A stretch of 56,920 nucleotides of DNA, the filler included, from Sphacelaria rigidula (lineage: Eukaryota), in NCBI GenBank assembly GCA_964200075.2. It is 8 parts of 8 records of this genome, joined end to end, with 100 filler letters (N's around TTAATTAATTAA, not from the genome) between each part and the next. Parts side by side here need not be neighbours in the genome. Positions count along the whole stretch, not along the records: positions 21,386 to 28,412 come from CAXNAA020016882.1; 7 more parts are not named here. One strand, 5' to 3'. Both the position numbers and the translations under genes were made by a program. Of the stretch, positions 14,041 through 55,898 are shown in pieces; within the stretch, counting starts at the first letter, position 1, and each line of letters opens with the position of its first letter. Below the pieces are notes generated by a model that saw only the letters and a program-made list of their open reading frames with translations, was not told the DNA's origin and searched no databases.

Positions 14041-16899
14041 GATGACCCGCATTCTATCCCTAACTCCATCGCAGGGCACACTAGTTGGACACCCGTGAGG
14101 CAGTGTATAAGCTGTGGCTGTCTCTGGAAGTGGCGATACCACAGAATAAAGCAACTCNNNNNNNNNNNNNNNNNNNNNNNNNNNNNNNNNNNNNNNNNNN
14201 NTTAATTAATTAANNNNNNNNNNNNNNNNNNNNNNNNNNNNNNNNNNNNNNNNNNNNGGAGCGATGTCTGACACACTTATGAGCCTCTTTTTCGTGCAAC
14301 CAAATACCCCCCCCCCCTGTCGTAGGATGACTCGATTGTACTGATCCAAGACGTACTGATACCAGCGTTTTTACGTCTTCGGCGCCGTCGAAAGCACACA
14401 CGAAGACTGTTTCAACACCACCCGCGGAAGGGGTGACAAAACGTTCCCGCTCAGTCTCCCCGACCCTATGCAGGAGCACTAATGACGACCGCTCATATCG
14501 ACCACCGCCTTCACCTCTTCGCACACAGCGTAACAGTTGCGTTAACGCACAGCTTAGCTCTACGCTCGGCTCTGGACTTGGTCCTCCAGAACTGAATGTA
14601 AATGTGAGGTGTGGGAATACCAACTTCCCGTCCCTGAGGCAAAGCCTTCCCTCAGCGACCGCGCGCATAGGCAGTAGTGTGCTCCACTCGACTGTATCAG
14701 GTGTCGCTGGTCTGAATTTCACCACTTCGGGTCAATTAACACCCATCCAGCTCGAACGAGTTCGTTCTTCGCGTTCATTGCACCACGCGAAGCTACCCCT
14801 GAATGATTCTCACAAGAAGCGTCCTAATTTACATTCTGCTATGACTCCTCAGCCAAGCTTGCCAACGGAAAGTCGACAAGCTTCGCCCGAGCATGCCCCC
14901 AATGCGGACACCATCCACCCAACTGGACGCAGTTGAGGTTTCCCCAAACACTTCGGAAGTTTCCCGCCCGTTGCCATGGCGAGAGAGGGAGCCCCGTGAA
15001 CATGCCCGCACAATAGCGCGCGCATTAACACGTATACCTCCCTCGACTGGAACGCCTTGACTTCATTCTCTCCAAAATGTGATGACTTTGGGCTTGATGA
15101 ATTCATCAGGCATCATAGAAGAATTCAAATCAGATGTTTCTGATGTTTTTGCCTATTCTATGGACGAACCTAGCATCAAACAACACGGATCCCCCAAGAC
15201 GTTGACCCCTGTCTTCCCAACACGGTCATCTATGAAATTGCTAATGACCAGCCGAGCTGTGCAAACCCTGGGGATCACATACCATCCACCATACTTTCTG
15301 GTGAGAGACCCAACCGCCGGCGGATCACCCGCCGTCCGTTTTCGCTGTCAGCACTGCTGTTCCCGATCAATTACCTTGGGTGAACATGGTTCGGATCTTG
15401 TCGGAGGTAAAGTGTATGTTGATCCTGCCACTTCTATACTCCACAACGCCTGCCAAGCTTGCCTTTCTGTTAGATAGTGGCAGCCCACAAACATGTGTTC
15501 GTGAATCAATGTGGCAAAACATGAAACGGACTGGCGCTGCTTCAGAAGTTTGCGAAATCACCACCCAGCCTCGAGTATGGGGCGGTTTTGGTGACACCTT
15601 CGACCACACGAAAATCAGTACGTCTCAGTGTGCAATTCTTTCACGACACAACTCGTTTTGCCAGCCTTGCAGTCTAGGCATATATCGTCCCCGACAGCAC
15701 CATAGCTCACGCCTTGGTACTGGGCAGAGATATTTACATGCGGTTTGATCAACGCACCTACCTCACGCTACCACAGTTATCGCCACAGTCTGTGCCTCGT
15801 GGAGAATGTAACATGAACATTTCGATACTCTTCACGGCGCTTTAGCGTATCGAAAAATGAACAAGCTACCGGAGCTGCTAAGCACCTACGATACGATGGT
15901 TGTGCTGGTGTTACCCTCTCCGATAAACTCAACATCGAGATTTTGCCCTCGTTCGACGAAACGGTATGCCTATCTTTACGGGACATTACCTCGCCGAAAT
16001 ACTTCCTCGAGTTGGTGCGCCCGCCGGCACCGAGCACTTTGTCTCAGCAGGCACACAACTTTTACCCCTCATCGGTCATGTTAACGTGGAACCCGGTGAT
16101 GTTTTGGGTATCGCTGCTGCTCCCTTGATATACACTTCACTTGAGACATATGTTACTGAACCCTCGGCGTCCAACTCGGCGTCTTCGACAGGCTGTTCTA
16201 TCAATTGCGTCGATGAGCCTTATTTCGACATAGCCTTTTCGTCTCCATCACGTATCCCCACCGTAGACCCTGCTCAATCAACTTACCACCCTCCTGCTGG
16301 AGTGCTTCAACACATATCACCAGAATTTCGGGAAAGTTTCTTGCACATGTGGAATCAACTTCCATCCCATTTACGTGACATCAACTTTGACCTACATGGA
16401 CACGGTTGGGAACCCGCAGTCGTTAGACAGTTGAGCGATGTTTCTTTGGAGTACTAAGACCGATTTTCTCAATCCAAAACGGATCTTGGGCATTACAAAA
16501 TGCCGCCCTTTGAAAGTACACTTCAACCTGGCGTTTCAACCATCTCTTCCCGACCGTATCGGACAAATCCCACCCTTACCAAAACGAAAACACCATCTCA
16601 GATGCGTACTTAGGTGCCGGATTAATCCGACACTCCACTTCTCCATGGGCCTCACCCCTAGTGGTAGTCCCCAAAACGGATAGACTCTCTAGGCGAAGGC
16701 AAAATATTCAGTACCTTCGATTTCGCTCCTGGATTTTTCCAGAATGCCATTCACCCTGACGCAGTCTCACTGACAGCGTTCCGTACATCTTTCGGGCTCT
16801 GCGAATGGCTCCGTAGGCCACAAGCACCGTCATTGGACCAGTTTGTTTCCCATGCTTAATGCAACGCGTCACAGAGAATCTCGAAAACGTCATCATGTA

Positions 16900-17309
16900 A
16901 TAGAGGATTCTATAAAATGAGGTTCATCAATGAAATGAGATTCGAGCTCAAAACAGTGCTTTCTCCACGCTTTCAGCGATGGTGGCCAATGACTTTCTTG
17001 TCGGCCTAATGCCCCTCGATCGCGTAGATACTTCTTCAGCGCAGTTTATCGACTCTGTGAGCTTACAGCGCTGTCCGAAACCGCCATTTCTACTCATTTT
17101 TTAGGGGGGGGGATATCAGGGAAACAGCAGTTCCGGTCAGCGCTGTAAGCTCACAGAGTCGGTAAAATGCGCTGAAAAAGTATCTACGCGATCGAGGGGC
17201 ATTGGGCCGACAAAAAGGTCGTTGGGCACNNNNNNNNNNGTGGAGAAAGTACTGTTTTGGGCTCGAACCTCATTTCATTGATGAACTTCATTTTATAGAA
17301 TGCTATGTT
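16900..17309. mobile_element. Foldback MITE (~180-bp inverted arms) with candidate 5-bp TSD ATGTA
   Basis: ATTCTATAAAATGAGGTTCATCAATGAAATGAG... pairs with ...CTCATTTCATTGATGAACTTCATTTTATAGAAT; ATGTA at 16895-16899 and 17310-17314; removing it restores the RT frame. Confidence 0.85.
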
Positions 17310-18637
17310 ATGTACATGGTCGACGCTATCGCCTTCGATGCCTCCCCTATTGCGCATGTGCGCATCTTACGAGAGTTTCTTTCTCGCCTACGGACGTACG
17401 ATTTGAAACTGTCTCCATCCAAAGCTTGCCTTGGCGGGACTGAATTGGATTTCCTGGGACTTCCAATATCACCGGCGGGCCTACACCCGGAAACCAACAA
17501 CGTCAGAGCAATGGCTGAACTGTCGACACCCACGAACATCACTCAGCTCCGCTCATTATCGGGTGGACTTTCTTACTATCGCAGTTTATTACCTAACCTG
17601 TCAAAACGGATTTGCTCCATTACTTACTTGCTTCAAATGGGCGACGCGTTTGTCTCCACCAAAGACGTGAAAGCTACCGTTCGCGATTTGCTGAAGACGC
17701 TTGCCGAAAAACAGACTATCTGTTTTCCAGACTGGGAGGCGGCGCAAGATGGCCCTCGTCTCTTTCAAATGCATACAGACGCCAGCATCGACGGGTTCGG
17801 CGCGGTTCTGAATCAACCTCAACTCGATGGCTCTGTTGGACCCATTCTCTACATCAGCCGCGCCACCCTGCCAAACGAGGTCAACTGCAGCCCACCGAAG
17901 TTGGACGGCGGGGTCATCACTTGGGCCATAAAGCGCCTTCGACAATATTTGTTCCACGTGCCTTTCCAAATCTACACGGATCACGGACCACTCGAACAAC
18001 TCGCTAAGGTTGGCGAACATAATTCGCGTGTGCAACGCTGGTTGGAGTTCCTGACAGCTTGTCAGTATACTGTCGAACACCGCCCAGGCGAAACCAATGG
18101 GAATGCCGACCTTCTCTCCTGCCTGCCCCATCTTCCAACGGCCGTAGACTTTAGCCCAGCTTGCCGATTAGCTGAACCCGATGAACCAGGCGTGTACCCT
18201 ATCCGGCGTTGCTCAACGCCTACTTGCGCCCTTGACCTTCATCGCCCAGACACCGATATGCACACGGCCGGCCCTAGCCCCCTACCGTATGATGAAGTCT
18301 TGGGTGGGCTAAGGCCCACAAATGCCGATTTCGTCGATTTCCGCACTATCGATCCTCGCGCAAATATTTCAGTTCCGCCACCTCCAATTGTCCATCTCAT
18401 TTCCGACAACACGCGCTCTCGACCTGCCGCCCGCGCCAGCCCTCCCTGCGCCCCGCCGCCACCAACAACACCTCCTGCCCCCACGAGTAGAGTAGCACCG
18501 ACTCTCCGCAACAGCGGTTCACGAGCCTTATCGACACATGCAACGCGCAATGCTCGTAACAAGGGCCGAGAACGCTCTCCGGCGCGCACTACTTCGACAA
18601 TGCCACCCTCCGCGGCATCGTTAGTACCAAACCCTTC

Positions 18638-20226
18638 CAAGGGTAGGTTGAGTAGAGTATGTACTTTTTAGTACTCGAGTAAAACACTTGAGTATTTACT
18701 CTACTCGACGTTTGAGTACGTTGAGTATGGCCTCAAATACTCTACTCCAATTTTGAGTAGGTGGAGTACAATTTCAAATACTCTACTCAAAGATTGAGTA
18801 AGCACTCTCAGTAATACTCGAGTATAGAGTATCGCTTGAGTACGACCTCAATACTCTACTCAAATTTCGAGTAGGTCGAGTACGGCCTCAAATACTCTAC
18901 TCAATTTTCGAGTAGGTTGAGTATGGTTTCAAATACTCTACTCAAATTTTGAGTAGGTCAAGTACGACCTCCGATACTCTACTCAAATATTGAGTAAGTA
19001 CTCCCAATAATATTCGAGTATAGAGTATCACTTGAATATGAGCTCAATACTCTAATCAAATTTTGAGTAGGTTGAGTGTGGTCTCAAATACGCTACTCAA
19101 ATATTGAGTAACCACTCTCAGTAATACTTGAGTATAGAGTACCCCTTGGGTATGGTGAGTACCCCTGACAGTCGGCGACTTCGTGACGTCAGTTCACAGA
19201 CTATGTTGAATGCATGGGCGAACGATGGCCATCAATTAGATGGGCGGCATTACACCACCGCCAACAAGGAGTACGAGCGAATGATGGGCCATAAAAATTT
19301 CAAGAAGCATGCAGGTGAACGAGCCTACTTGCCCCAGCGCCCCATCTCACCAGCCCCCGCCCACGGCAGTTCATACTCGATACCTCTTCACGCCTTCGAT
19401 ATTACCTATTTCAGTACAGAGCGCTACTCATCATCATCGAGTAATCGAGTAATCGAGTAATCGAGTAATCGAGTAGGTATTATCAAAATGAGCGACTCTA
19501 CTGGCCACGGTTTGACAAGACAGTTTGACCTTGAATCAACACTCATCATGAATGGGCAACTCTAGGAATATCTCGGTATTTCTTCCACCCGAGTTTGAAT
19601 ATCTTACCTACGAACTTGAATATTGAAGTTGAAGTTATACGTTTTCGGTACATCCGATCCGGCCTCAGATACTCCACTCAAATTTTGAGTAGGTCGAGTA
19701 TGATCTCCGATGCTCTTCTCAAATTTCGAGTAGGCCGAGTACGGCCTCAAATACTCTACTCAAATTTTAAGTACGTTGAGTACGGCCTCAAATACTTTAC
19801 TCAAATTTTGAGTAGGTGGAGTACGACCTCAAAGACTCTCTACTCAAAGATTGAGTGAGCACTCTCAGTAATACTCGAGTATAGAGTATCACTTGAGTAT
19901 GACCTCAATACTCCACTCAAATTTCGAGTAGGTCGAGTACGGCCTCAAATACTCTACTCAATTTTCGAGTAGGTTGAGTATGGTCTCAAGTACTCTACTC
20001 AAATTGAGTAGGTTGAGTATGGTCTCAAATACTCTACTCAAAAATTGAGTAAGCACTCTCAGTGATACTTGAGTATATAGTATCACTTGAGTATGACCTC
20101 AATACTCTACTCAAATTTTGAGTAGGTTGAGTATGGTCTCAAATACTCTACTCAAATTTTGAGTACTAAAAGTATGACTCTTCAAAAATACTGAGTATTG
20201 AGTATACTCTACTCGATCTGCCCTTG
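18638..20226. mobile_element. Non-autonomous hAT-like TIR element with ~41-bp subterminal repeat arrays
   Basis: TIR CAAGGGTAGGTTGAGTAGAGTAT / ATACTCTACTCGATCTGCCCTTG; 8-bp TSD AACCCTTC / AACCCTGC; arrays of GAGTAGGTTGAGTATGGTCTCAAATACTCTACTCAAATTTT at 18700-19140 and 19660-20165. Confidence 0.85.
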
Positions 20227-20953: not shown

Positions 20954-22327
20954 TTCGGATAGGGGGGAGGTGGCAGTTCGCTTCCAACGAGCTAAGACTT
21001 CGCTCCTCCGCGGCCATGTCATTAGTGTAGTCGCGCACTCTTTGTTCATCCTATCTGATAAGGTCGCGAAGTGTACGAGCTTCAAGGTGTTTAGCCTGAC
21101 CGATATGTCGCAAGACGTGCGATCGGCAGCCTCTGTCGGTGTGGGTAACGTAGGGGCGGGGGCTGGGAGCGCGGCCAGTGCGGGATATTCTTGCAGGAGT
21201 TTATTCTACTCGGCCGGCGGCTCGGTCAAATAGATGCGTAGTATAGCCTCTGCCAGACGATCTGGACAAGAGGGCTATTCAGTGANNNNNNNNNNNNNNN
21301 NNNNNNNNNNNNNNNNNNNNNNNNNNNNNTTAATTAATTAANNNNNNNNNNNNNNNNNNNNNNNNNNNNNNNNNNNNNNNNNNNNATGGAGGGATGGGAC
21401 TTCAACCTCATATTATGTTTCAACCCCAAAAATTAGGATCGGCTGTTAATTAGTTATTCCATCTCCTCGCGGAATATTTTGTCGGCCTTATTTTTTTTTT
21501 TATATATACATATACATCGCATGAACACGAACGGATCCGGGGGGGGGGTCAGTGCAGGCGACACCATTAACCAAATTAATCAAGAAATCACCCATACTGT
21601 AGCAAGGATCCGGTTTGAAAAATTGACTAGTTTTATATATGAGAAGCAACGCATATCATGTGCCACAGCCTACATCGCAGCAGCCATTCACCCATTTGTT
21701 TCAGAATGTACCATAAATCGCCGGACAACATACAACCATCGACGAACGTTACATCACATAACACATGGTAACTTCTGGACCCCCAAGGACAACGAGACAA
21801 ATGGCCAGTTTCTTGAACCGACGAAAGGCCACAAAGTAACTATCACCACATGCTTATCACAGCGACCCAAAGATGACTAGACCGACATAACTCGGAGTGA
21901 GACTGGTTGCCGACATTGGTAAAGATGATAAGTCGACCGTGAAGTGGTGGACCCGCTCCCTTCAGTGCCCGCGATCATTTTTTACAGCGCACGGTTGGAA
22001 CCGAACACGATATGGCGATAACCAGAGAATGATATAAGAAAAGAAGTATACGGCGTATATAAAAAAAGTATTTGAAAGTTCATGTCCATATCGACCTGAA
22101 GCACAACATCGCTCAGCATTTATGAACATGAATCCCCATATGTTAACACGGACTAATTAGACCGGATAGCAGAATGTAATTAACATCCACCAACAATTGC
22201 ACATCATTCGAGTCGTGAAATCCAAGACGAACCTACCGCCCAAACGCCGGTTCGCAAAACCGACGACGAGACAAACATGATGCATCAGTTACCCAATATT
22301 GTTGCAATTGGACATCATATACGCAGT

Positions 22328-25300
22328 ATGGACCCTGCGTCATCAGCCGCACCAACACGCAGACATTCTAGATCCGATGCTATACAGCGAAAAAAATCTT
22401 GGAATCTATCGACAACGCCGTAGCGACCCTACGTGAAAGGAATGAGGATGGCGAATCAGAGGAGGATGATGCCATCCGAGATAGGGTTATCAAGACGCTC
22501 ATCGACCACAGATACTTGAAGAAATTTCGCATGAAGGGTGTAATCCATGCCGATGGGTCATCGAATGAAGATATGGTGGCGATCGTCGAGGCCATCAAGG
22601 AGATGCACCAATGGCTATCTACTCCCGCCATTGTAGCCTCGAAGGAAGGGTCACGTGCTCGTCGAGTACTCGGCGCAGCAATATCGGCGAGTGGAGTATC
22701 ACACGGAGCCCTCACCCAAGCAATCGGGCCACTACAGAGAACTTTCGTGGGAGAGTGTTCAACCAGAAGAAAACGAGCACTGACTGCCGGAAACGGCGAT
22801 GAATTGTAAGTGCAAGTACAAAAGATATACACTAGCGGCATCCGATATCGCGTACGGAAACAGTGGCGAGTGTGTGGAAAGAGGTCGACACTAGAATAGC
22901 GAGCGATGGCTACCCATGACATGTACGCGTTCGTCAATAGATACATCGGCTATATTTCGGTATCATGCCAATGACATTGTTTCTCTCACTGTCTATCGTA
23001 TATGGACCTTCTCAAAAAGACCCCTTTCATTCGAGACAGGATGGGAAAACGGCGGAGACGTTGTGACGGCTTCGACATCCGGAATCCCAAGGCAACAGCG
23101 ATGATAGCCGACGTCATCGACGATAACACGCAACCATCTCCCTGGGACACGAAGACGAAACACGACTTCAGTGCAGGACGGCATCGCCGATCCCCTGTAG
23201 ACCGGTCCCTCCAATGCCTCCAACCCGACAGATGCCCTACGTCGGGCGTGCGGTTTCTGCTGGGCTCCGGGACGGACCTACACGAGAAAGTTAACAACTC
23301 CCTACAAGAGGCGGTAAGCTCGACATATTCATCACGTAGAACATATACAGTGCAGCATACTTGTAACATTCGACGTCACCGCCCGATATCAAATATAACG
23401 TCGTTGTTCGCTTCGGAGCGTATGAGAATGCAGCTTAGTGTCGACACTCCACTAGTGAACGAGGATAGGACGCCCTATGTCCACAACGCATGGACGAGCT
23501 TACGTAACAAAGTTTAACAGAGTTGATGCAGCAGCATGTGACACTCGACCTGCGAGTCCATCATATGCTAACCCGCGTGGAAGGAGTGTCATACCATGTT
23601 AGACCAGCCCTCCCGCACTGGACCTCATGTGAAGCATCTGTTACTGTCCCACGCTGCCGCCTCCGCGATGACCACATAGTTCCGGGAGGGAAAAGTGGAG
23701 ACTGGTCACATATCAAGATCTATCTTTGCGAAGTTGATGCCATTCAATGTAGTCAAACAGACTGCGAGATGCTGTCTGTGCCCACATTGCTACAAGGGTA
23801 AGTTGATCATGAGACCGCTCGTGCGAATGTGGCCACGACTTCACTGCGGCGAGACTGCTGGGTCGCCATGCACATGCCGGTGTGACCTTTGCGCCAATGG
23901 CGGATGCAGAGCTTTCCTGCCAACCATGAGCGTCAAAGACGTCCACAGCATGGGAGTGCTCTGCGACAAGCTCCTATGTGAGAAGGTGAAGCGATACAAG
24001 ACCACGGGAGGGAGTGAGGTCACAGCACACCTGAACACATGTGTAATGGGATCATGCGGAGAATGCGACAAACATCAACGGCGCTTCTTCGACTGCCCTC
24101 GTCATCGACAGTCTGCGGAAGATGTGGAGAGTATACCGGACATCGTTCGAAGAACAGAAATGAAATGGGAGGCGTTCGTCCCTGTGGATGAGAAGGGGAA
24201 CGAGATTCGGCGACCGCAACGGCAGGGCAGACATCCCCGAGCCAACGATGACAACGACGGCGATGAGTCATGGGAGCCTCAAGGAACGGGGACGCGAACA
24301 CAATCTCGACTGGTGTGTTTGACGTTAATGTGATCCAGATGGAGAGAGTGTAGAGAAGGGGGGGGGGGGTCTTGGGCGTCTTCCTGCTTCACGAAAACAA
24401 AAGTCGAACCGTGCTCAACAGCAGCAACGGTTTTTAGATTATTGACCTCATCAGACACCCATATACACCGTTTGAAGTCGAATACAAGCGCACCGCGAGT
24501 GTTGCAGGTCGTCAGCCACATACATGAGACTGTTCTGTCATGCCATAAACCCCACCCCCCTTTCGTAGTAAGATTCCACATACGATGGTGTCATCACAAT
24601 GTGTAAACCGCTGGTACGCAGCTGCTGGGACGGATCAATCGCAGACCTTCAAAAGCGACCACTCCAAATCTCGCCACACGCGCCAATGCTCGAGACGGCC
24701 ACCCGTCGAGGGAAACGATCGTCACCACCCCCGATCGTTCAAGCAACATTCGTTTCCTTGGTATCCGTCGAGAATTGCCCGCACGGCCAAATTAACTACG
24801 TAGATCAACATTCATCGCATCCAGACTCTGTCGATAATGCATGGTGGTATCACCAAATATACGTATTCCCGCTCGCGTAGTATCTCGGGAGTTTCACCAC
24901 TGAGAATAAGGAAAACAAACGCAGTGCATAGTCCGACACATAATCACCACATACACCGCATTTATCAAAGCCATCCAAGCCTGTAATCGTTCAATACGTT
25001 TCCGCTCGCCCAGCTTACCCCCCTGAGGCCAGTTTTCGAAACCGGGAATGACGACATCACACATGAATATCGACATGAATTAGCACGAGAATGAACACGG
25101 GAGAAGCGTAGCTGCAATCCCTTCCTTAGTGGCGGTTACCGTGAACGATGATAAAGTGAGGTACACATTCCCTGCAGACCCTGGCCTACGAGACGAACGT
25201 ACTGGAACCCATCTCACGATCGTCTCTACCACATACCGTTTGTCTGTGAACTTTCTTTGGTCGAATCAGGCGGTGGTGTGGAGGGGTGGTTCTGTGACTG

Positions 25301-27682
25301 AATTGTTCAAGGATGTGAGGTCCACTGCGGAACGCCTATTCCCTCATCGACGACAAAAACAGCTCCAGCGTGTGACCATCAATGAGTTGATCGCGACTCT
25401 CGAAGATGGACACGTGATCATGGTGGCAGACTTCCAAGAGCGCTATACACATGACGAGCAGGATAAGGTTCGATCCCAACACTGGAATCGCGATTCCACA
25501 ACGCTGTTTCCGGTTCCAGTTTTTTTCAAGCTCAACGGTAAGGTATGGGTATACTCGTTTGTTGTGCTGAGCGACGACAAATTGCAAGACAATACCTGGG
25601 TGCAACGCACCTTCACCCGACTACTACAGACAGAAATACCATCCATGCTTGAGAGAGTCGGAGCCACACCCATGACGCGTGTGACTGTTGTGACGGATAA
25701 TTGCGGGAAACAGTTCAAGTGTGCGACGTCATTCGGGCATATCGGTGACTGTAAAGTGTACGTCATCGACCAACCGGGCAGCCGTATCCACATCGAAGCA
25801 CACTACTTTGCCGCCTGCCACGGCAAGAGCGTGTCGGGCAGCGAAGGCGGCGTGGTGAAGACATTCGCCAGGAATCAGGTCCTTAGAGGGCGAATGCGGA
25901 TCCTGAGCTCCTTTGATCTCTTCGAGAAACTTGCGCTCGAGCTAGACTTCGAACTTCGAGAAGTGGACAAGACTACAGCGCAGGACTCCTCCGGGAAGAT
26001 AGGTGGTGGGTAGCTGCTGATGTCGAATACCAGAAAGGTGAGTGTCATTGTCACATCGCCTGCTGCAAAGGGTACAATGCCGTGCATTTCTGCACATGAA
26101 GTACGAGTCCGCAGTGGGGTAGCGCTCGCGTGCGTATTACGTGCATTAGTGATGCGAGAGGCCGTGCACGACCCAAAGCCTCGCCATTTGATTGACAGTG
26201 CCATCATTATATGAAGTGGCACTGATCCCAATCATACGCCCCGTGTTGTCTGCTCGTGTGTATGTGCAACCCAGGGCGCGAACGACCCCAACGACGAAAC
26301 GACAACATTCGCGCTGACAAAACAGAAGAATACACTCCTCGGACGGAAGATGATCTTCGTCCGAGAAACGGTGAGAAACGGATGTAGCGGCAACACGCCA
26401 ATCTGCACAGTCGCCACTTCGGGCTATCCACGTGACCGGTTGCATGTCGCAATCTCGGATCGCCGCAACGTCCACCCCGGGAGTGGTGGCAGCATACCAG
26501 CTATCTTGCGGGTGAGACTCTAGCCGCAGAAGCGTAGGGGATGTGCTAAAAAACGTTTCTGCCTGAGATGACGTGATGAATAGTAGATAGGAAATTGTGT
26601 CGACTAATACATGAGATTAGGCGAAAAGCAACCACAACCGGGCGCCACACAAAGAGCACATGGGCTGCTATCCGTGAATAGCGACTGTCTCTCGCCACTT
26701 GCTATCAACAGGCAAACAACAGGAGGAGGACTCCTACTGACTCTGAGGACCACTCGATCCACCTTGACTGCTTCCCTGTTCTCGGAGAAGGTGCCACAGA
26801 TGCCGCACTGGCCAGGGGCACATGTGTCCACTGATCCGGCAAGGAGTGATTCCGGTACCAGTGGAATGGGCGCGGCGCACAGACCGGGATGAGCCAGTCA
26901 GTACACGGGAGCTGGAACTGAAAGACACTTTCCGGTGCATGCAGTGTCACCTAGCTTACGGTTCTACCGCGCTCATGCGCGTTAATCCTAGCGAAAACGG
27001 GGGCCGGAACCTTGTACCTGTTGTGATCGCGCGAAGATCGCCATGCCCATGGGAGAGGGCGTTCTCGTCCTACGGTACTTTCACTCCTGGGGACATCATG
27101 GTTTGGACTCACGTTATACATCCAATGTCGAGTGACAGACAAGTGCCACGGTTCCGCGTGTCGTCTGATACCGTGAGCAACGACAACCAGCGAGCCGTCC
27201 CCCTCGTGACCGTCGCCGCCCAGGGGGTGCCCATGTCTGCATACATGAAGCAGAGCACGAAGAATCCTTCGATGTGGAAGATGAAGACGTCAGCGATCAA
27301 GAATGCACGCAGCAATGCCGTATTGATTTCCTTAAATCCTTCACAGGCCCTCATCAACCATGCTGAGGTCGTTCTCGAGGCATGCGATACCCACAGTTCC
27401 CCCGTCCTCGCGCGCGGCATATACCCCGAGGGAACGTTGCTACAGAGGAAGGTTCGCGCACCGACAGTGTACATAGAGTGCCAACGCCGTGCGAGGCCAG
27501 CTTGGCAAGGGGCCAAAGATTTCGCGGGGGAGATTGTGGGGCAACAGTTCGACGCGAAATCTCGCCGGTACTCATACGAGGTAAAATGGAGCGGGGGTAC
27601 GCCAGGAGAGATAGCCTTAGCGGGTCTTGAGGGCGTGATCGACGAGGGCGCAGTTCAGCGGGTGCTTCTGGACCATCGGTGA
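22328..27682 (+). pseudogene. Spliced Sola2-type DDD transposase. Exons ~22328-22805, 23040-23313, 23680-24312, 25270-26037, 26275-26511, 26791-27682
   Basis: Five phase-compatible GT-AG introns. Motifs CCLCPHC, ADFQERY..QD..SQHW, SFVVLSDD, TDNCGKQFK, HYFAACHGKS.SGSEGGVVK, and spliced LSCG|CHRC..G. Lesions: frameshift near 22395, TAG at 26011, 10-bp duplication near 26365. Confidence 0.85.
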
Positions 27683-28512
27683 TTGCGATCACGACTCGAG
27701 CTTCATTACAGTTGCCCAGGTGATGTGTACATCTCGATAAGTCACACCCGTGCAATGCTGTGTGAATGAAATCCCCTCTTCAATAGTGTAACTACCCGAC
27801 AACGACGATTCAGGGCACATGCACAGCACGCTACTATGTACTAACGACATTTCTACGTCTTCTAAGGTTCGTTATGCTTTTACCCTCTTCTCATTACATT
27901 GATTACTTCGACATGGCACATACGTCGACAACTTGGTATGCGCGACCATCGCCGGACGAGCGCGTGGTGATGCAGGTTTAAGAAAAAATATCCTCAGTGG
28001 GACTATGGTTATGTGGCTGACCCGGTTTCAAAACCAGCCACCAACGGCGTCTGGAGGAACATATGTCGTTTCGCAAAAGCGATGGCGAGCCCAAAGCAAC
28101 TGTCCCGAACCAGCACATAGGCCCGAAACTACCACATCGACATATATGATGAACACACGCCATGTCACCCGTTGATGGACTGTCTCCGGTGCACTTATTT
28201 GTGGGTGGGGCAGTCGCAGCGTCACAAAATGCTGCACATGCAGGGCTATTTTTTCATAGCTGGGTTATCGATATAGCCATATTCCTCTCAACTGCAAGTT
28301 TTTTACTCCATAATAGGCTATGTGTCGCTGCATGTAATTTTCAATAAACAACAACAAATTGTGCGAATTGAGGTTTAACTCCGAGATGAGGTTCAAGCCT
28401 AAAACAGTACTTNNNNNNNNNNNNNNNNNNNNNNNNNNNNNNNNNNNNNNNNNNNNTTAATTAATTAANNNNNNNNNNNNNNNNNNNNNNNNNNNNNNNN
28501 NNNNNNNNNNNN

Positions 28513-35639: not shown

Positions 35640-38600
35640 CTCCGAGGATGCCACACAGGTAAATGCCTTGTTTTGCGCAAGAGCTCATGGCAATCAGCTC
35701 CGCTTCGGTGGTAGATTGGGCTGAGATTTTCTGAACGCTAGCCGAGAAGTGTATGATACCCCCAGCAAGGAAGTAGATGCTCCCCGATGTAGACCTAGCC
35801 TTCTCCGGGTTGCCCGTACCGTAAGAGGCGTCACAGAACCCAGTGAGCTCGAAGCTGCTGTTCCGGCCGTAGGTGATGCGAATGTCAGGGGTGCCGCGCA
35901 GGTATCGCAGAATGCGGTTCACGGCCCCCATGTGTACTGAGGTTGGCTTGCTCATGAACCGTGCCGCCTGTGACACTGCGAAGCAGATGTCCACGCGGGT
36001 ACACTGGCACAGGGAGATGAGGGATCCCACGATGTTCTGGTAGTCGAGAGTATCATCCTTGTCGAGCGGTACGCTGCCTCCGGGCTCCGCGGTCAGCTCG
36101 TTGCCGATTCCAGGTGTGTGTACTGCGTTGCAGTCGGACATGCCGCACTTTTGCAGTAGCGACATTACGTAGGGCCCTTGGCTGATGCCGGTGGTGCCTA
36201 GCTGCTTGTCCTGGATGACGTCGATCCCCAAGAGTTTAGTGGCGTCGCCAAAATCCGTCATAGAAAACTTGTCCATGAGTGCTTTCCGGAGTTTAGCCAC
36301 GATTGCTGAGTTGGGTCCCGTGATGAGGAGGTCGTCCACGTACAGAGTGAGCATAATGTAGTCGTCTCCGCTGCCCTTGACGTATACGCACGCGTCGCTC
36401 ACGGTCGGTTCGAAGCCGAGTGCTCGCAGATCGCCGTCGATGGTGCTGTTCCATGCTTTTAGTGACTGCCGCAGCCCGTAGATGTACTTGTGCAGCTTCA
36501 TGATGAACGGTCGCCCCCGCGAGTTCTTCTTTTCGAATCCCGGCGCCTGCCGCATGTAGACTTCTTCCTCAAGCTTCCCGTTGAGAAATACTTTTGAAAC
36601 GTCCATGGCTGAGACGCTCCATCCGTTGGCAGCGGCGATGGCAAGAAGGAGGCGTTGACTCTCGATCCGGCAGACCGACGCAAACGTGCTGCCGCAGTCT
36701 ATGCTGTGCCTCTGCGACCAGCCCGTTCCGACGACTCTGCCTTTGAGTCGCCCATCCGTTTTTACCTTGAACACCCAGCGTGAGCCGATGATGTTATGGC
36801 CTGGAGGAACTGCTTCCGGAGGGACTAACTCGAAAACCTGGAGGTGGATAAGGCTCTGGTGCTCCTTCCGGGCGGCCGTCAGCCATTCCGCAGAATGAGG
36901 TGAGGCCATTGCCTCCTTGAAAGTGTTGGGTACAGAGATGGCCCCTGGAGTAGTGACCTTGTGTAGCCCCACAACGCCGATGTAGTGACTCACTTGTTGC
37001 ATAAGCGAGTACGACTCTTGGCGTGCAGCGAAGTCCACGGCAAGCGCCAGCTGGCGTAGCGCCCGCGCTTGGTTCAGGCCGGAGGGAGAAAAATTACTTG
37101 TGGCGGTAGCCGCGGGTTTCGGAGATGAGGATGTTGCCGATCGTAGTTGCCACGTAGAGCCGAGCGGTGAATTATTCTAGTCGTCTGCTGCGTCCAAATT
37201 GCTGATGCCATTGAAAAAGCGGTCGCTGGTGTTGTCGTTGATGATGTCGATACTGTCATCGGCACTACTGCTGCCCAGCGCGAAGTCCTCATAAATTGGG
37301 TCGTCGCTGTAATCTTGCCCCCGGGCGCCGGTTGTGGTGCGAACAGCGACCGGCGGCGTCTCTATGAAAGTGACGTTGCGGGTGGCGGTCGTAGATTCGG
37401 TAGGTAGGCTTGTCGTTGTCGTAGCCGATGAGAACTCCTTCGCGCGCCCTAGGATCTAGCTTGCGTAGATGCCCCTCATGGTGGACGAAGACGCGCGCCC
37501 CGATGGTGCGCAGGAAGGATAAATCGGCGTGCTTGCCGAACATACGGTAGCAGGGGGTGTTTCCGCCGATAGTCTTGTTCGGCAGGCGGTTCAGGAGAAA
37601 AACCGCAGTGGCCGCCATTTCCCCCCAGAGGGACTTTAGGAGGGCTGCGCCGTTGAGAAGGCACCGGGCCACGTCCATGATTGTGCGCCCGTCGCGCTCG
37701 TTGAGGCCGTTTTTCTCCGGCGTATTGGGCGAGATGAACTGTTGGACGATCGCGGTGGTCTCGCAGTACTCGCGGTAGTAGGCGGCGATAAACACGCCAC
37801 CACCGTCGACCCGTAGGTGCTGAATTCGGAGTCCCAGCGGCATAGCCAAGTCTTGCACAAATTTAACGAGCGTTGTGAGTGCTTTGTCCTTGGTGGAAAT
37901 GAAGTAGACGGCTTTGAAGTTGCTGTAGTGGTCGGAGTACTTGGACATGTACCTGAAATTCTCACGCGCCGGGGGCGTCACGGGTCCCAGTAGGTCCGTG
38001 CTGACCAATTGCAGCCTTTCGGAGATGACGGTTGGAGCCGCCTTGTTCCGAATCGGCTGTCTGACGCCCTTGTTGATTTGGCAGACCTCGCACGAGGTCA
38101 GCGAGCCGGTAAACTGAACACCCGTCTCGGCGATGTCCCGCGCCGCCTGCATAGTGCGCTCGTTGGGATGTCCAAGGCGCTGGTGCCACGTGTTTGCCCC
38201 CGCCGCCGGCATGGCGGTAGCCGGTTGAACCGGCAAAGGGGTAGTTGAAGTGGCCGGCAACCCCGGCGTGGCCGTCAGAGCCGGCGGTGTTGCTGTGGAA
38301 GCTGTAGGTGCCGCTGTGGCCCCGCTACGAATTAGACGTGAGGCCATTGCTCTTCCGATCGGAAGAGTATGTCCAGAGATGACTCTAGTTGGAAAGGCTG
38401 CCTCCGCACGGGTCTTGATGGTAGGGGCTAGCTTGAGATCGACATAATCGATAGTGGGGCAGTCGATGTCCTTTCGAAGTGGAATCTTGAACGGTCCGAC
38501 GTCCAAGTACGACTGCTTGGCGACAACCGTGTTAACCCCCTTGAGTGCTGCCGTACCTCCCGAAAACAGGTGACGCCCTAGCCCCGGCACGTTTATGGCC

Positions 38601-40449
38601 GGCAGGTAGATGGGTGGGCCGTGCTGCGGTCGTCGATGGCGCTCAGGGTGAGAGTGCCCATGCTGACTCCGGCGAGAGTGTTGTTGCCGGCGACGACGAT
38701 CGTCACCGGCGGATCGAGCTGGACGAAGTCGGACATGCTCGATTCGATGTCCTTGGTAAGGTGGCTGTCAACGAAGTGTGACGAAGCTCCGCAGTCCGAC
38801 ATCATGGTTAACTGGACTGGGTCTGGCTTAGGAGAGCCGGCTGCCAGGAAAGAGTAGCCAATGCCGGACGGGGGGGCGGTAGATAGGTTGTTATATGTTG
38901 TAGTCGTCGCTTACGGCGCGGGTGTAGCCGCTGCCGCTGGAGGTGGAGCCGGAGGTGGAGCTGTTGCTGTAGTCGTAGAGTCCACGGTGACAGCCGTGTT
39001 GGCCTGTCCTGAGGTCGATCCTCCGCCACCCCGGCGTCCGATCTTGTTGCTGCAGTTCCGGCCTCCGCCGCCGCCGTTGTTGTTGTTGTTGTTGTTGTTG
39101 TTGTTATCATTCCGGCCTCCGCCGCCGTCGCAGCTGCCGCCGTTGCGACCGGCTCCGTCGGTCCCGTTGGAGCCGCCGTTCCTTTGTCGTTGCTACTTCA
39201 TGCAGTCGGCGTTGTCGTGGAGATGCGTTTTGTGGTAGCTGCACCACCAGTTGCTTCTCCGGCCAGATGTGGATGACGAGCCAGCGTCGCGATTGCGTTG
39301 CAGGATGAAACAGGACGATTTGTTGTGTCCAGGCTTGGTGCAGTAATCGCACGTGCCCCGAAACCATGCAGTCGCAGTCATAGCGGACTCGCGCCCTTTT
39401 GTACGCGATGGCGCTGACGATTCGCCGCGCGCCAAACGATCGGCGAACATGTTCCGAGCAGTGGTCTCGATCTCTTCGAGCGTCATCTCGGGGTCCCTCT
39501 CCGCCGCAAAGCGAAGTGTCTCGTATTCACCAGTCAGGCCCTCGAGAATGGGGTCCTGCATGCGGGCGTCCGATACGGGCTCGTTGATCTGTTCGAGCTC
39601 GTCCCGCTTTTGATGCATGGCCAGGATGTACTCGTCCGGGTCTTGATTGGGCACCATAAGATGTTGCTGGAGACCCCGCATCAAAATGCGCCGTCTTTGT
39701 GACGAAGAATTGAAGTATTTCTTGTTCAAAGCAATCCACGCAGCTTGGCCGTTCGGCTTTTGGCCCTCGCGCGCGGCAAGGCTACTGACCAAGCTGTTGG
39801 CCGCTCCCTTGGTGGACAGCAGGAGGACGCTGAAGATCTGCCTGTTGTAGCCATCCCAAGCGTCCAAATCTGTTTGGTTGCTGATCGTCGTATCGGCGAA
39901 CAGGTCGTCGGTAGGGACTGTTGACGCGGGAATTTCCGCGGAGCGCCCGCCGGGCAGGCCGTCTTCAGCTTCGCTGGCCTCGGTTCCTCCGGTCCTCCCG
40001 GAGTCAGCCCTGGCGCCAGTGTCGCCCCCTGAGTCTCTCGTTCTGCTGGTTGAGACGACTGGGGTGATCGCAGTCCTCTGCAGAGTCCTGCGCTCGTAGG
40101 TGACGGCGGGTCGAGGCTTGCCGTCCAGAATCCGAGAAATTTCGGGATGAAGAAGGTCAGCCGTTGCGCGGAGTGTCCTCCGCCACGGCACAAAGTGATG
40201 GCCATCAAACTTGCTGATACTCTTGATGAGTTGACCAGCCGCCGAAGTGGACTCTCCCATGATAGGCACTGGCGGCTGAACTACAAGTAGTCGAAGATGG
40301 AGATGATATCTCGTTGAAATTATTCTAGACGAAAATCTTCGGAGCATTGCGGTGATCCTCGGAGGTGCTCCCTCGGAGGATGCGGCTTGAAGTGACGGAC
40401 CTAGAAGAACGTCGATGCGGTGTGCTGATCACGATCGAGGCTCATAACC
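35640..40449 (-). mobile_element. Ty1/Copia element copy 1, internal region (gag, protease, integrase, RT, RNase H), several frameshifts, cut by contig end
   Basis: gag 39193-40260 with zinc knuckle CDYCTKPGHNKSSC; protease SDCGASSH (38593-38805); WHQRLGH...CEVC and integrase STDLLGP/RVDGGG/NGLNER (37289-38590); RT YVDD and RNase H FCDAS, STTEAE (35640-37038). Domain order is Copia. Confidence 0.95.
40438..40449 (-). promoter_or_regulatory. Primer-binding site GGTTATGAGCCT, complementary to the tRNA-Met anticodon arm
   Basis: Directly after the LTR-terminal CA; complement GGCTCATAACC contains the CAT anticodon loop. Confidence 0.8.
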
Positions 40450-54700: not shown

Positions 54701-55898
54701 AGGGCCGTGCTGGAGTGGTACCTACAATACTTGGGTCGGCCGCGCCCGAAGCGCCGTTGGTCTTGAAATGCTTCTTGTTGGCAGCTGCTACTGCGTCAAA
54801 GCTACCTGCGGGCAGTGCGACTGGGGGACACCACGGAGATGAGCCGAAAAAGAGTGGGGAGGGGGGTCTTGGGGGAGGCGAGGGTGACGGAAAGGGTGGC
54901 CGGGACAATGCTCAAAATAGTGGCAGTGAAGGCGGAAGTTCTAATGGTGGTGTTTTCGACGCGCCCTTCAACACTCACGACGCTTTCTTGGCAGGACTTA
55001 AGCACGACAGTCCCCTTGTGCGACAGTGTGCCGTGGCTGCGTTACCGTTGTTAGTTTCGAGGCTCGGTGATGAAGGGCGCTCAGATGACGACTCCGCCAA
55101 CATTGGACCATGGGAGCGTCGATGGCTTCCCGTCTTACTCGCCCTTGCCGTGGACAAAAACAACCCCGAAGGTGTCCGCCTTGAGCTCGCGGCGGCGCTT
55201 CCTCGTCTCGGAGCATCCTTGTTCCGCGCGCGTGAACAGCGGCAGAAAGAAAAACCGCCACCCCATCTGCCAGCAACGATAACGACTCATGTACACGGCA
55301 ACATCAACACCGGTAAACCTACCGAACTACAAGTCGAACAACCTCTTGGACCGAACGCGTTCGCCGACCTCTTGCCACTGTGGCCGTCGCTGCTCGAAGA
55401 CAAATCCGCCCACACGCGCGCAGCAGCGGCGCGCGGCGTCCTGGCCGCCGCCTCCGCGGCGCCGTTGGAGCAACTCCGAGCGACTGGCGCCGCCGGCGCC
55501 AGAGTGCTCCGCTCTCTCGCTGACATGCTTGCATGCGGAGACCCCGAAGTGGCATGGGTTGTCGCCGGCGGTGCGGGGCAATTTGTGGCGGACGGTGGGA
55601 AGATATTGCGCGCCCTGTATGCCGGTGGCGGCAGGAGTGGTGGAGAAGGAGGCGGGAACGGGGACAGTGAAGGTGCGGACGATCAACAGGATACTTGCGA
55701 TGACGAGTACGATGGTGAAGATGATGAGGATACGCTGGGAGAGGATGAGGAGCGGGAGCGGGAGCGGCGGCTGCGGGAGCGTGCCGTGGATCGATTCATC
55801 GAGGCCGTCAACGCGCTTCTGCAGAAGCATGGCGACAGCCTGCGTGAAGGCCGGTGGCAGTCGCTGCACGAGTTCACCGCGCTGCTGCGGGCTTTGGG
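51766..55898 (+). CDS. 5' part of a large HEAT-repeat protein gene, probably an ATR-like PI3K-related kinase. Exons 51766-51855, 52016-52101, 52239-52415, 52633-55898
   Basis: Canonical splice sites; 3.27-kb open exon; HEAT units GLKHDSPLVRQCAVAALPLL, DKNNPEGVRLELAAAL, LLEDKSAHTRAAAARGV, LACGDPEVAWVV and ALLRALG resemble the order of mid-region ATR HEAT repeats as I recall them. No kinase domain in the window. Exon 2 is 1 nt short. Confidence 0.65.

What the first reader, a model, noticed from the sequence alone, without database searches (positions are those of the whole stretch)
22328..27682. Six-exon Sola2-type transposase (~1090 aa) that the ORF track does not show
Seen: five GT-AG introns (22806-23039, 23314-23679, 24313-25269, 26038-26274, 26512-26790) join in phase, and splicing rebuilds motifs split between exons (DEL|MGKRRRRCD, QEA|FREGK, LSCG|CHRC). 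Known: the DF.E.Y..QD..S.HW / SDD / D...QFK / HGK...GG.VK series is the Sola2 transposase signature. Inference: an intron-rich Sola2 lineage in this alga, longer than the catalytic core needs.
Basis: partly seen in the sequence, partly recalled or inferred. Interest (0 to 1): 0.75.

Follow-up and report, generated by a model that had tools for sequence, protein, structure and literature searches.

The report
Broken six-exon Sola2 transposase gene
This is a six-exon gene for the cutting enzyme of a Sola2-type jumping DNA element in an alga; the exon structure is real, but this copy is broken in several places, so it is an ordinary dead transposon copy.

Summary
All five introns are GT..AG. Contigs of two runs guessed to be RNA join the exons with net skips of 234, 366, 957, 237 and 279 nt, while two DNA-like runs read through the introns. 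Brown-algal proteins of 864 to 1192 aa align colinearly to the exons.

In this window the spliced sequence is not one ORF. The ATG at 22328 is out of frame because of 2 extra A at 22390. There is a TAG at 26011, and a 10-nt tandem duplication at 26363 shifts exon 5. GGC at 25837 replaces an Asp that is invariant across the family. With the first three set to the states seen in the laid contigs, the exons give one ORF of 1089 codons.

The Sola2 assignment holds. A published Sola2 profile has the consensus D-f-a-e-n-y ... q-d-e-v-q-s-k-h-w ... t-l-h-p and h-F-f-a-t-s-h. The parts I read of the Sola1 and Sola3 profiles lack these motifs. The core folds as an RNase H-like transposase/integrase domain. 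I found no terminal repeats or target duplication.

Sola2 elements, and intron-rich transposase genes, are already described in Ectocarpus. This is a new member of a known kind.

The parts
22328..22805 (+). Exon 1. The ATG at 22328 is out of frame with the exon-1 ORF (22372-22805) in this copy.
   Evidence: frames. Weak homology of 22399-22806 to P0200, P0201 and P0207 (E 2e-4 to 9e-7). The joint at its 3' end appears in X6 and X7 contigs.
22390..22396 (+). Lesion 1: a run of 7 A. All four laid runs have 2 letters fewer here, which puts ATG 22328 in frame.
   Evidence: table 4 ('22390 left out 2': X6 13.9/13.9, X7 18/18, X1 21.3/21.3, X3 540.2/540.2)..
22806..23039 (+). Intron 1 (234 nt, GT..AG)
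   Evidence: Joint 22806>23043 with 2 letters between (net 234) in 2 contigs each of X6 and X7.
23040..23313 (+). Exon 2
   Evidence: tblastn of P0157 aa 77-170 and P0201 aa 237-334.
23314..23679 (+). Intron 2 (366 nt, GT..AG)
   Evidence: Joint 23312>23679, skip 366, GT..AG with cut +1, in X6 and X7.
23680..24312 (+). Exon 3: Cys/His-rich region upstream of the catalytic core. It holds conserved Cys columns; a DNA-binding role is inferred only.
   Evidence: 42% identity to P0157 aa 156-374. Invariant C199, C201, C288, C293 and C296 in A2. No Pfam match.
24313..25269 (+). Intron 3 (957 nt, GT..AG), holding a moderately repeated insert around 24441-24675.
   Evidence: Joint 24309>25268 with 1 letter between (net 957) in one X6 contig. 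In the 24441-24675 bin, depth is 29555 in X3 against about 700 beside it, and 883 in X1 against about 20.
25270..26037 (+). Exon 4: catalytic core with an RNase H-like fold.
   Evidence: P0001 has 1211 relatives at E<=1e-3. Model pLDDT 86.9. VIA Z 11.6 to SIV integrase, 11.0 to Mos1, 10.7 to Metnase.
25429..25431 (+). First catalytic Asp (D54 of P0001, in ADFQERY), just after strand 1.
   Evidence: Nearly invariant in A1; invariant D438 in A2. Capital D at state 32 of the Sola2 HMM. Secondary structure.
25696..25698 (+). Second catalytic Asp (D143, in VVTDNCGKQFK), at the end of strand 4.
   Evidence: (D527 invariant).
25837..25839 (+). Lesion 2: GGC (Gly) at the column of the third conserved Asp (HGKxxxD). 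All four laid runs read A at 25838, giving GAC = Asp.
   Evidence: column D190 is at least 90% Asp. (D578 invariant in 48 of 48). table 3 (25838 G>A: X6 77.9/77.9, X7 101.4/101.4, X1 37.9/37.9, X3 753.3/753.3).
26011..26013 (+). Lesion 3: in-frame TAG, aligned to the Gln of Ectocarpus 'GGDQLLM'.
   Evidence: C at 26011 in X1 (48.4/48.4) and X3 (753.3/753.3), but in only 19.4 of 77.9 in X6 and 16.4 of 80.8 in X7.
26038..26274 (+). Intron 4 (237 nt, GT..AG)
   Evidence: Joint 26035>26273, skip 237, cut +2, sides 118 and 49 nt.
26275..26511 (+). Exon 5, read in two frames in this copy.
   Evidence: tblastn: P0157 aa 648-689 in frame 3 and aa 683-726 in frame 1.
26363..26382 (+). Lesion 4: 10-nt tandem duplication (GAGAAACGGT/GAGAAACGGA) that shifts the frame.
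   Evidence: table 4 ('26363 left out 10': X6 123.2/123.2, X7 54.6/54.6, X1 28.7/34.9, X3 753.3/897.9).
26512..26790 (+). Intron 5 (279 nt, GT..AG)
   Evidence: Joint 26510>26790, skip 279, cut +1, sides 160 and 219 nt. Depth 0.19 and 0.23 in X6 and X7 across 26556-26790.
26791..27682 (+). Exon 6, ending in TGA. It starts with the conserved SC.C..C motif that the exon 5/6 join rebuilds. The last ~85 aa (about 27416-27670) may form a small beta barrel.
   Evidence: P0200 aa 891-1178 and P0203 aa 600-892 align to 26792-27670. A3. pLDDT 70-88 for residues 209-293 only, with SH3/Tudor-like matches at Z 4-6, which is weak.
21386..21448 (.). Left flank: the end of a very high-copy repeat, not shown to belong to the element.
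   Evidence: depth 5.6e5 in X3 in the first bin. At 21447-21451 there are loose ends that agree poorly with one another (agreement 0.36-0.40).
28350..28412 (.). Right flank: the start of a very high-copy repeat, about 70% reverse-complementary to part of the left flank. Not shown to belong to the element.
   Evidence: 135 X3 contigs with unlike sequence before 28350., I1 (30 nt, 70%).

Best explanation
The region holds a decayed copy of the transposase gene of a Sola2-superfamily cut-and-paste DNA transposon, in an alga whose closest named relatives for this gene are Ectocarpales brown algae.

In intact relatives the gene has six exons and five GT-AG introns and encodes a protein of about 1089 aa. 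That protein has a Cys/His-rich N-terminal half (presumed to bind DNA or the element's ends; inferred), an RNase H-like catalytic core with three conserved Asp (DDD), a Cys-rich motif just after the core, and a C-terminal extension conserved among brown algae.

Such an enzyme would bind the element's ends, cut them with the metal-binding DDD site and paste them into a new site, leaving a 4-bp target duplication. This last step is taken from the literature on Sola2 and was not seen here.

The copy in the window cannot make this enzyme. It has 2 extra bases in an A-run after the start codon, a nonsense codon in the core exon, a 10-nt duplication in exon 5, and Gly in place of the third catalytic Asp. 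Related copies that lack the two insertions, and some that lack the stop, exist in sequencing runs of the same coded organism. Those copies appear to be transcribed and spliced.
For: Exon structure:
- All five introns are GT..AG.
- Five joints with the predicted net lengths occur only in contigs of X6 and X7, the runs guessed to be RNA. Depth is near zero over introns 1 and 5.
- Ectocarpus and Pylaiella proteins align colinearly.

Family:
- The core has 1211 relatives at E<=1e-3, 120 at <=1e-10 and 15 at <=1e-30.
- No Pfam family matches: 0 families for 6 of the 7 window pieces, with only two E=0.13 rows for exon 1; 0 relevant families among the 55 members. PMC5751038 reports the same lack of Pfam match for Sola.
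- The consensus matches the published Sola2 HMM letter series. It does not match the parts read of Sola1 and Sola3.

Fold and catalytic residues:
- Core model pLDDT 86.9, pTM 0.82.
- Best structural matches are retroviral integrase cores, Mos1, Metnase, IstA and Sleeping Beauty, Z 9.5-11.6.
- D54 follows strand 1, D143 ends strand 4, and column 190 opens the helix after strand 5.

Decay:
- Frames and the stop are shown.
- All four lesions differ from the state in laid contigs.
- Setting the three ORF-breaking ones to that state gives one ORF of 1089 codons.

Transposon rather than host gene:
- Several diverged lineages occur within single Ectocarpus genomes. In Ectocarpus sp. 6, P0199, P0200 and P0208 are 98%, 50% and 52% identical to P0157.
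- Near-identical paralogues lie on one E. siliculosus chromosome.
- A curated Ectocarpus family, Sola2-1_Ec32, has a 26-bp TIR, a 4-bp TSD and 48 copies.
Against: - No terminal inverted repeat above chance was found between the two ends of the 7-kb piece. The best local score was 22, against a shuffle mean of 21.6 and maximum of 32. No target-site duplication or empty site could be shown.
- Copy number in the laid DNA-like runs looks low. Usually one contig covers a given place, with depth rising only 2-3 fold over the core and exon 6.
- X6 and X7 are only guessed to be RNA. If they were DNA, the joints would show an intron-less retrocopy instead of splicing.
- The TAG at 26011 is also the majority state in X6 and X7 (58.5 of 77.9; 64.4 of 80.8). 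Part of what is transcribed there is therefore also broken.
- The Sola2 match rests on reading consensus letters of 73 of the profile's 218 states (16-66 and 144-168, of which the report quotes 26-66 and 144-150), not on a score. States 151-168 of that profile did not show the HGK...D motif.
- I could not show that the Ectocarpus proteins found here are the products of the curated Sola2-1_Ec32 family.
Confidence: 0.8

Rival explanations
1. It is a host gene domesticated from a Sola2 transposase, spliced, expressed and low-copy. The window holds a pseudogenised paralogue of it.
For: No TIR above chance in the piece. Low apparent copy number in X1 and X3. Five introns and transcription. The whole length, including the C-terminal extension, is conserved among Ectocarpales.
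Against: Several diverged lineages plus near-identical copies occur within single Ectocarpus genomes. The catalytic DDD is kept in 48 of 48 full-length members. A curated mobile Sola2 family with TIR and TSD exists in Ectocarpus. The existence of a decayed copy like this one is typical of transposons. In all four runs, similarity between the laid contigs and the window stops at 28312 and the contigs run on into unlike sequence (table 8), so the copies may sit in different surroundings.
Confidence: 0.12
2. The copy is in fact intact and autonomous, and the four lesions are assembly or sequencing errors.
For: The 2-base excess lies in a homopolymer (7 A), a classic error site in long-read assemblies. 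No served run holds the window's exact sequence (best share of words 0.38), so the lesions cannot be checked against the source reads.
Against: A 10-nt tandem duplication, a C>T nonsense change and a G-for-A change at a catalytic codon are not typical assembly errors. The TAG is independently present in the majority of X6 and X7 contig depth, so it is a real variant.
Confidence: 0.05
3. It belongs to another DDE/D superfamily without a Pfam model (Sola1, Sola3, KDZ/Zisupton, Dada, Kolobok, Academ, or an unnamed one).
For: No Pfam hit. The feature-based atlas search put DUF7869 and ISAzo13-type clusters near the Ectocarpus protein at 0.93. Only parts of the three Sola HMMs were read.
Against: 41 consecutive consensus states of the Sola2 HMM reproduce the family's motif series, and a second block (hFfatsh) matches too. 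The parts read of Sola1 and Sola3 do not.
Confidence: 0.03

Closest known systems
Sola2 superfamily as captured by the RNase_H_Sola2 profile (supplement of Muszewska et al. 2017, PMC5751038; built from alignments of Majorek et al. 2014)
   Same: The same motif series around the first catalytic Asp (DFaENY ... QDEvQSkHW ... TLHP) and the block HFFatsH. No Pfam model. RNase H-like fold.
   Different: The window's copy is diverged in the motifs (ADFQERY, QDKVRSQHW, TLFP) and has lost the third Asp. The gene has five introns, whereas the animal relatives found here are single ORFs of 814-875 aa on 3-5 kb contigs.
Sola2-1_Ec32 of Ectocarpus (PMC12477816; Table 1 passage, supplementary tables)
   Same: A brown-algal Sola2 whose curators noted 'possible introns'. 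The closest named homologues of the window's protein are Ectocarpus proteins.
   Different: Sola2-1_Ec32 is 4606 bp with GGCGG-CCGCC termini, a 26-bp imperfect TIR and a 4-bp TSD. Here ATG to stop alone spans 5355 bp and no such termini were found. Protein identity to the Ectocarpus relatives is only 36-48%. I could not link the NCBI proteins to that curated family. The curators had no expression data; here joints in RNA-like contigs support the splicing.
Sola2-Fanzor chimeric elements of dictyostelids (DFa-2, PPa-1/4/5; Bao and Jurka 2013, PMC3627910; passages read)
   Same: Sola2-type transposase of similar size (888 aa reported).
   Different: Those elements carry a Fanzor1 gene, 12-21-bp TIRs and AT-rich 4-bp TSDs. 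No second gene is evident in the 7-kb piece, and no TIR or TSD was found.
Sola1 and Sola3
   Same: Sister groups under the historical 'Sola' name. They also lack Pfam models.
   Different: The parts of their profiles that I read show other motifs: Sola3 has l-l-D-W-a-q-K-v-l-P, and Sola1 has v-l-s-l-P ... f-y-y-k-r-k.
Mos1/mariner transposase and retroviral integrase catalytic cores (solved structures 4mdb, 3hos, 6rwl and others)
   Same: RNase H-like fold, with acidic residues after strand 1, after strand 4 and on the following helix. Z 10-11.6 over 133-176 residues.
   Different: Sequence identity is 7-14%. There is a long insertion between strands 1 and 2. This is likeness of fold only, not family membership.

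Membership tests
Sola2 DNA transposon superfamily | Catalytic core matches the Sola2 sequence profile | tested here: met
   Consensus letters of the published RNase_H_Sola2 HMM (states 26-66 and 144-150) were compared by eye with the A1/A2 consensus and the window. No bit score could be computed because the profile cannot be loaded into the tools.
Sola2 DNA transposon superfamily | Three conserved acidic residues on an RNase H-like fold. That the triad is DDD for Sola is my recollection of Bao et al. 2009, a paper that is not held. | tested here: met
   Met for the family: D438, D527 and D578 are invariant in 48 of 48, and they sit after strand 1, after strand 4 and at the start of the next helix in the model; the fold matches are. 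The window copy itself has Gly at the third position.
Sola2 DNA transposon superfamily | 4-bp target-site duplication (PMC3627910; PMC12477816) | tested here: inconclusive
   The element's ends were not located, so no duplication could be read. The few joints 21447-21451>28346-28362 in X3 have sides of only 22-30 nt and lie in a high-copy repeat.
Sola2 DNA transposon superfamily | Terminal inverted repeats | tested here: inconclusive
   Best inverted local match between 21386-22327 and 27683-28412 scores 22, against a shuffle mean of 21.6 and maximum of 32. The ends may be decayed or may lie outside the 7027-nt piece.
Sola2 DNA transposon superfamily | Several copies at different genomic sites (mobility) | tested here: inconclusive
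   Only one copy in the window. The laid runs show at least two variants (C/T at 26011, with or without the 10 nt) and 2-3 fold higher depth over the core and exon 6. All long contigs leave the window's sequence at 28312. Copy number and sites were not resolved.
Sola1 | Match to the Sola1 core profile | tested here: not met
   States 14-39 of 124 read: v l s l P r l n v g q f y y k r k l s v y n l t i y. There is no counterpart of the QDE.QS.HW / TLHP series. The rest of the profile was not read.
Sola3 | Match to the Sola3 core profile | tested here: not met
   States 1-25 of 131 read. The first Asp sits in a-l-i-l-l-D-W-a-q-K-v-l-P, not in DF.ENY. The rest of the profile was not read.
Intact autonomous transposase gene | One uninterrupted reading frame after splicing, with all catalytic residues | tested here: not met
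   Stops in all three frames of the joined exons. The four lesions are listed under parts.

The most novel reading that the evidence does not exclude
Brown algae and their relatives carry a distinct long form of Sola2 (about 1090-1190 aa). Its five-intron gene structure and its roughly 200-aa conserved C-terminal extension, possibly ending in a small SH3/Tudor-like barrel that could steer insertion towards chromatin marks, are shared across genera. The source species still holds an active, transcribed copy. This would be the first transcript-supported gene model for an algal Sola2.
Probability: 0.3. Interest if true: 0.4.

Novelty: new member of a known kind. Interest (0 to 1): 0.25.

Why it matters
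It gives a checked six-exon gene model, with exact splice sites, for an algal Sola2 transposase. [quoted passage not shown] Such a model helps annotators avoid calling these loci host genes or missing them altogether. It does not change what is known about transposons: Sola2 in brown algae and intron-rich transposase genes are already in print, and this copy is dead.

Tried and rejected
Searches that gave nothing useful:
- Pfam gave no usable hit for any exon or for 26 long relatives, nor for the 55 members of A1.
- PDB sequence search gave only chance rows.
- The phage collection had no match.
- The first word-based homologue search (lengths 'longer') found none. The last one, with A2, returned only 12 brown-algal proteins, so the dictyostelid Sola2 proteins of PMC3627910 could not be looked for.

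Resources not available:
- No whole genome is held for this window.
- Yuan and Wessler 2011 and Bao et al. 2009 are not held. What I say of them is recalled.

Literature routes that failed:
- The Majorek et al. supplement is cut and held no Sola entry in the part searched.
- The bivalve paper's Sola2 consensus DNAs are cut at 400 letters.
- A full-text search for the motif DFSENY found 0 papers.

Sequencing runs:
- No RNA holder is listed for the stretch. X6-X9 are only guessed to be RNA.
- No run holds more than 0.38 of the window's words.

Termini:
- No inverted repeat above chance.
- The 63-nt high-copy stretches at both ends of the piece were considered as long TIRs shared with deletion derivatives, or as unrelated flanking repeats. 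I could not decide between the two.

Other ideas considered:
- TAG read as Gln by a variant code. Rejected because three other lesions are present and the DNA-like runs have CAG at that site.
- Window-wide tandem repeat of about 7.1 kb. Rejected: the periodic N runs are spacers between unrelated pieces.
- C-terminal chromo or Tudor domain. There is no sequence hit. The fold matches are only Z 4-6 on a 5-sequence alignment, too weak to claim.
- The atlas lead to DUF7869/ISAzo13 was not followed.

Full report
What the window is. The 56920-base window is not one locus. Runs of 44 N, TTAATTAATTAA and 44 N recur every 7127-7128 bases, and there is no similarity at that offset. A copia-type pol gene is cut off at one spacer, with nothing continuing on the other side. 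The finding therefore sits in a free-standing piece, 21386-28412. Only that piece is real context. No whole genome is held.

Checking the observation. All five proposed introns begin with GT and end with AG at the stated coordinates. However, the joined 3282 bases are not one reading frame. The ATG at 22328 is in frame 0. Exons 1 to 5a are open in frame 2. Exon 4 has a TAG at 26011-26013. From about 26377 onward the open frame is frame 0. So the splice sites and rebuilt motifs are right, and the claim of an in-phase ~1090-aa product is wrong for this copy.

Independent support for the exons. The exon-4 peptide (P0001, 247 aa) has 1211 relatives at E<=0.001 among 1.84 billion representatives. 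The closest named ones are Ectocarpus siliculosus 'conserved unknown proteins' CBJ33599.1 and CBJ32683.1. Of 193 stored proteins compared with the piece by tblastn, 177 alignments fell on the core exon. The other 22 fell mostly on the remaining exons, in order. CBJ32683.1 (P0157, 864 aa) aligns to exons 2, 3, 4, 5 and 6 at 36-49% identity. Its Gln in 'GGDQLLM' lies over the window's TAG, and its residues 648-689 and 683-726 lie in two different frames of exon 5. Longer models from Ectocarpus sp. 6 (P0200, 1192 aa), E. fasciculatus (P0201, 1189 aa) and Pylaiella littoralis (P0203, 892 aa) extend the match to exon 1 (weakly, E 2e-4 to 2e-5) and to within a few codons of the stop at 27680. Their protein coordinates abut at every exon border.

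Reads. No run holds the window's exact sequence; the best share of sampled words is 0.38. I laid contigs of two runs guessed to be RNA (X6, X7) and two that look like DNA (X1, X3) at 88% likeness or more. Only X6 and X7 show joints: 22806>23043 (net 234), 23312>23679 (366), 24309>25268 (net 957; X6 only, one contig), 26035>26273 (237) and 26510>26790 (279). Three of the joints are reported as GT..AG. In the same two runs depth falls to 0.19 and 0.23 over intron 5, and to 1.1 and 7.5 over intron 1, against 35-100 over exons. X1 and X3 contigs cover intron DNA and have no such joint. This is what spliced RNA looks like. The caveat is that the RNA label is the tool's guess.

The four lesions. The same table shows that each defect of the window copy differs from the state in the laid contigs.
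- Two letters fewer at the A-run at 22390, in all four runs.
- A instead of G at 25838, in all four runs.
- Ten letters fewer at 26363: all of X6 and X7, 28.7 of 34.9 in X1, and 753.3 of 897.9 in X3.
- C instead of T at 26011: all of X1 and X3, but only 19.4 of 77.9 in X6 and 16.4 of 80.8 in X7.

So the stop-bearing variant is itself transcribed in X6 and X7. The 10 extra letters are a tandem duplication, GAGAAACGGT/GAGAAACGGA. With the three frame-breaking positions set to the contigs' state, the six exons give 3270 bases: 1089 codons, one terminal stop and none inside. The window holds a decayed copy of it.

What the protein is. No Pfam family matches any exon, any of 26 long relatives, or any of 55 aligned members. 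An alignment of 55 relatives gives the consensus DFxENYxxxxQDExQSxHW ... TLHP ... SDD ... SDGCxxQYKN ... HFFxxxHGKxPCDGxGG. In 48 full-length members three Asp residues (D438, D527 and D578 in Ectocarpus numbering) are invariant, as are five Cys columns and an HGK motif.

The core folds with confidence (pLDDT 86.9, pTM 0.82). It is closest to retroviral integrase cores (Z 11.6, 138 residues aligned, rmsd 3.5), Mos1 (Z 11.0, 166 aligned), Metnase, IstA and Sleeping Beauty. Foldseek agrees, more weakly. The three Asp columns sit after strand 1, at the end of strand 4 and at the start of the helix after strand 5. These are the usual places for the catalytic triad of this fold. In the window the third is Gly (GGC at 25837-25839).

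Is it Sola2? The tools hold no Repbase or Dfam library, and the two founding papers are not held. The supplement of Muszewska et al. 2017 (PMC5751038) prints their HMMs for Sola1, Sola2 and Sola3 as text. States 26-66 of RNase_H_Sola2 have the consensus e v l i l g D f a e n y q l v v q d e v q s k h w e k e q a t l h p v v a y v k e. States 144-150 read h F f a t s h. This is the family's motif series, position for position.

As controls I read Sola1 states 14-39 and Sola3 states 1-25. Neither has the series. Sola3 places its first Asp in l-l-D-W-a-q-K-v-l-P. States 151-168 of the Sola2 profile look as if built from very few sequences and do not show HGK...D, so the third Asp could not be checked against the profile. 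I read 73 of its 218 states in all (16-66 and 144-168). The comparison is by eye, not by score, but 41 consecutive positions leave little room for doubt.

Fit with the literature. The Ectocarpus mobilome paper (PMC12477816; Table 1 passage, supplementary tables, other passages) lists one Sola-2 family, Sola2-1_Ec32. It is 4606 bp with GGCGG-CCGCC termini, a 26-bp imperfect TIR, a 4-bp TSD, 48 copies of which 14 are intact, and best blastp hit Sola2-1_HM. [quoted passage not shown] Bao and Jurka 2013 (PMC3627910, passages) report an 888-aa Sola2 transposase, short TIRs and AT-rich 4-bp duplications in dictyostelids. I could not prove that the Ectocarpus proteins found here are the products of Sola2-1_Ec32.

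What could not be shown. I found no terminal inverted repeat above chance between the two ends of the piece, and no target duplication.

The first and last 63 bases of the piece belong to a very high-copy repeat. In X3 the depth is 5.6e5 and 9.9e5, against about 600 inside. More than 100 contigs run into unlike sequence just inside 21448 and 28350. The two stretches are about 70% reverse-complementary over 30 nt. They may be unrelated flanking repeats, or the inner parts of long termini shared with many deletion derivatives. The few direct joints 21448>28350 have sides of only 22-30 nt. I leave this open.

All long contigs of the four runs stop matching the window at 28312 and continue into unlike sequence. 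On the left, similarity fades near 21570. The shared unit is therefore about 6.7 kb. Copy number in X1 and X3 looks low. A moderately repeated insert sits in intron 3 (24441-24675), which may explain that intron's length.

C-terminal part. Exon 6 is conserved to its end among the brown-algal proteins. With only five sequences the model is poor overall (pLDDT 47). The last 85 residues reach pLDDT 70-88 and resemble small SH3/Tudor/chromo-type barrels at Z 4-6. That is within the range of chance likeness, and there is no sequence match to such domains. I record it as a lead only.

Verdict. The region is a pseudogenised copy of a six-exon Sola2 transposase gene. The claim of an intact in-phase gene does not hold for this copy. 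Related copies in the same coded organism lack the two insertions and have Asp at the third catalytic position. Some of them also lack the stop, and they appear to be transcribed and spliced. This is a new member of a known kind, of modest interest. Its main value is a transcript-supported gene model for an algal Sola2.

Noticed in passing
window 4857-49893 (N runs listed): The window is eight pieces of 7027/7028 nt joined by N44-TTAATTAATTAA-N44 spacers, plus two 10-N runs at 4857 and 17230. The pieces are not contiguous, so features that seem to span a spacer are artefacts.
   Followed up: yes
window 35641-40428, minus strand: Ty1/copia-type retrotransposon genes: gag (39193-40428), integrase (37289-38767) and reverse transcriptase RVT_2 (35641-37176, E 9e-63). 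The pol gene is cut off by the piece boundary.
   Followed up: partly
window 17241-18668, plus strand: An ORF with the RNase H domain of LTR-retrotransposon reverse transcriptases (RT_RNaseH, E 7e-23).
   Followed up: partly
window 18638-20226: Arrays of a 41-nt unit (about 18 copies at 60-88% identity) arranged in higher-order blocks of about 196 nt and flanked by a 23-nt inverted repeat. Possibly a satellite or the inside of a non-autonomous element.
   Followed up: no
window 52420-55899, plus strand: An open frame of 1160 codons in a GC-rich stretch (58-61%) with no Pfam match. The feature search points loosely to HEAT/ARM-repeat proteins, with low recognition. Unresolved.
   Followed up: partly
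window 21386-21448 and 28350-28412: Very high-copy sequence at both ends of the piece (depth about 1000 times that of the gene in run X3). The two ends are partly reverse-complementary to each other. Weaker relatives lie at 16915-16961 and 17247-17314.
   Followed up: partly
window 24441-24675 (inside intron 3): A repeat about 40 times deeper than its surroundings in both DNA-like runs, with a sharp edge at 24520. Distant copies lie at 1360-1492 and 14266-14333. Probably a small element nested in the intron.
   Followed up: no
window 27416-27670 (end of exon 6): The last ~85 residues are conserved among brown-algal relatives and are predicted with fair confidence as a small beta barrel resembling Tudor/chromo/SH3 folds (Z 4-6 only).
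   Followed up: partly
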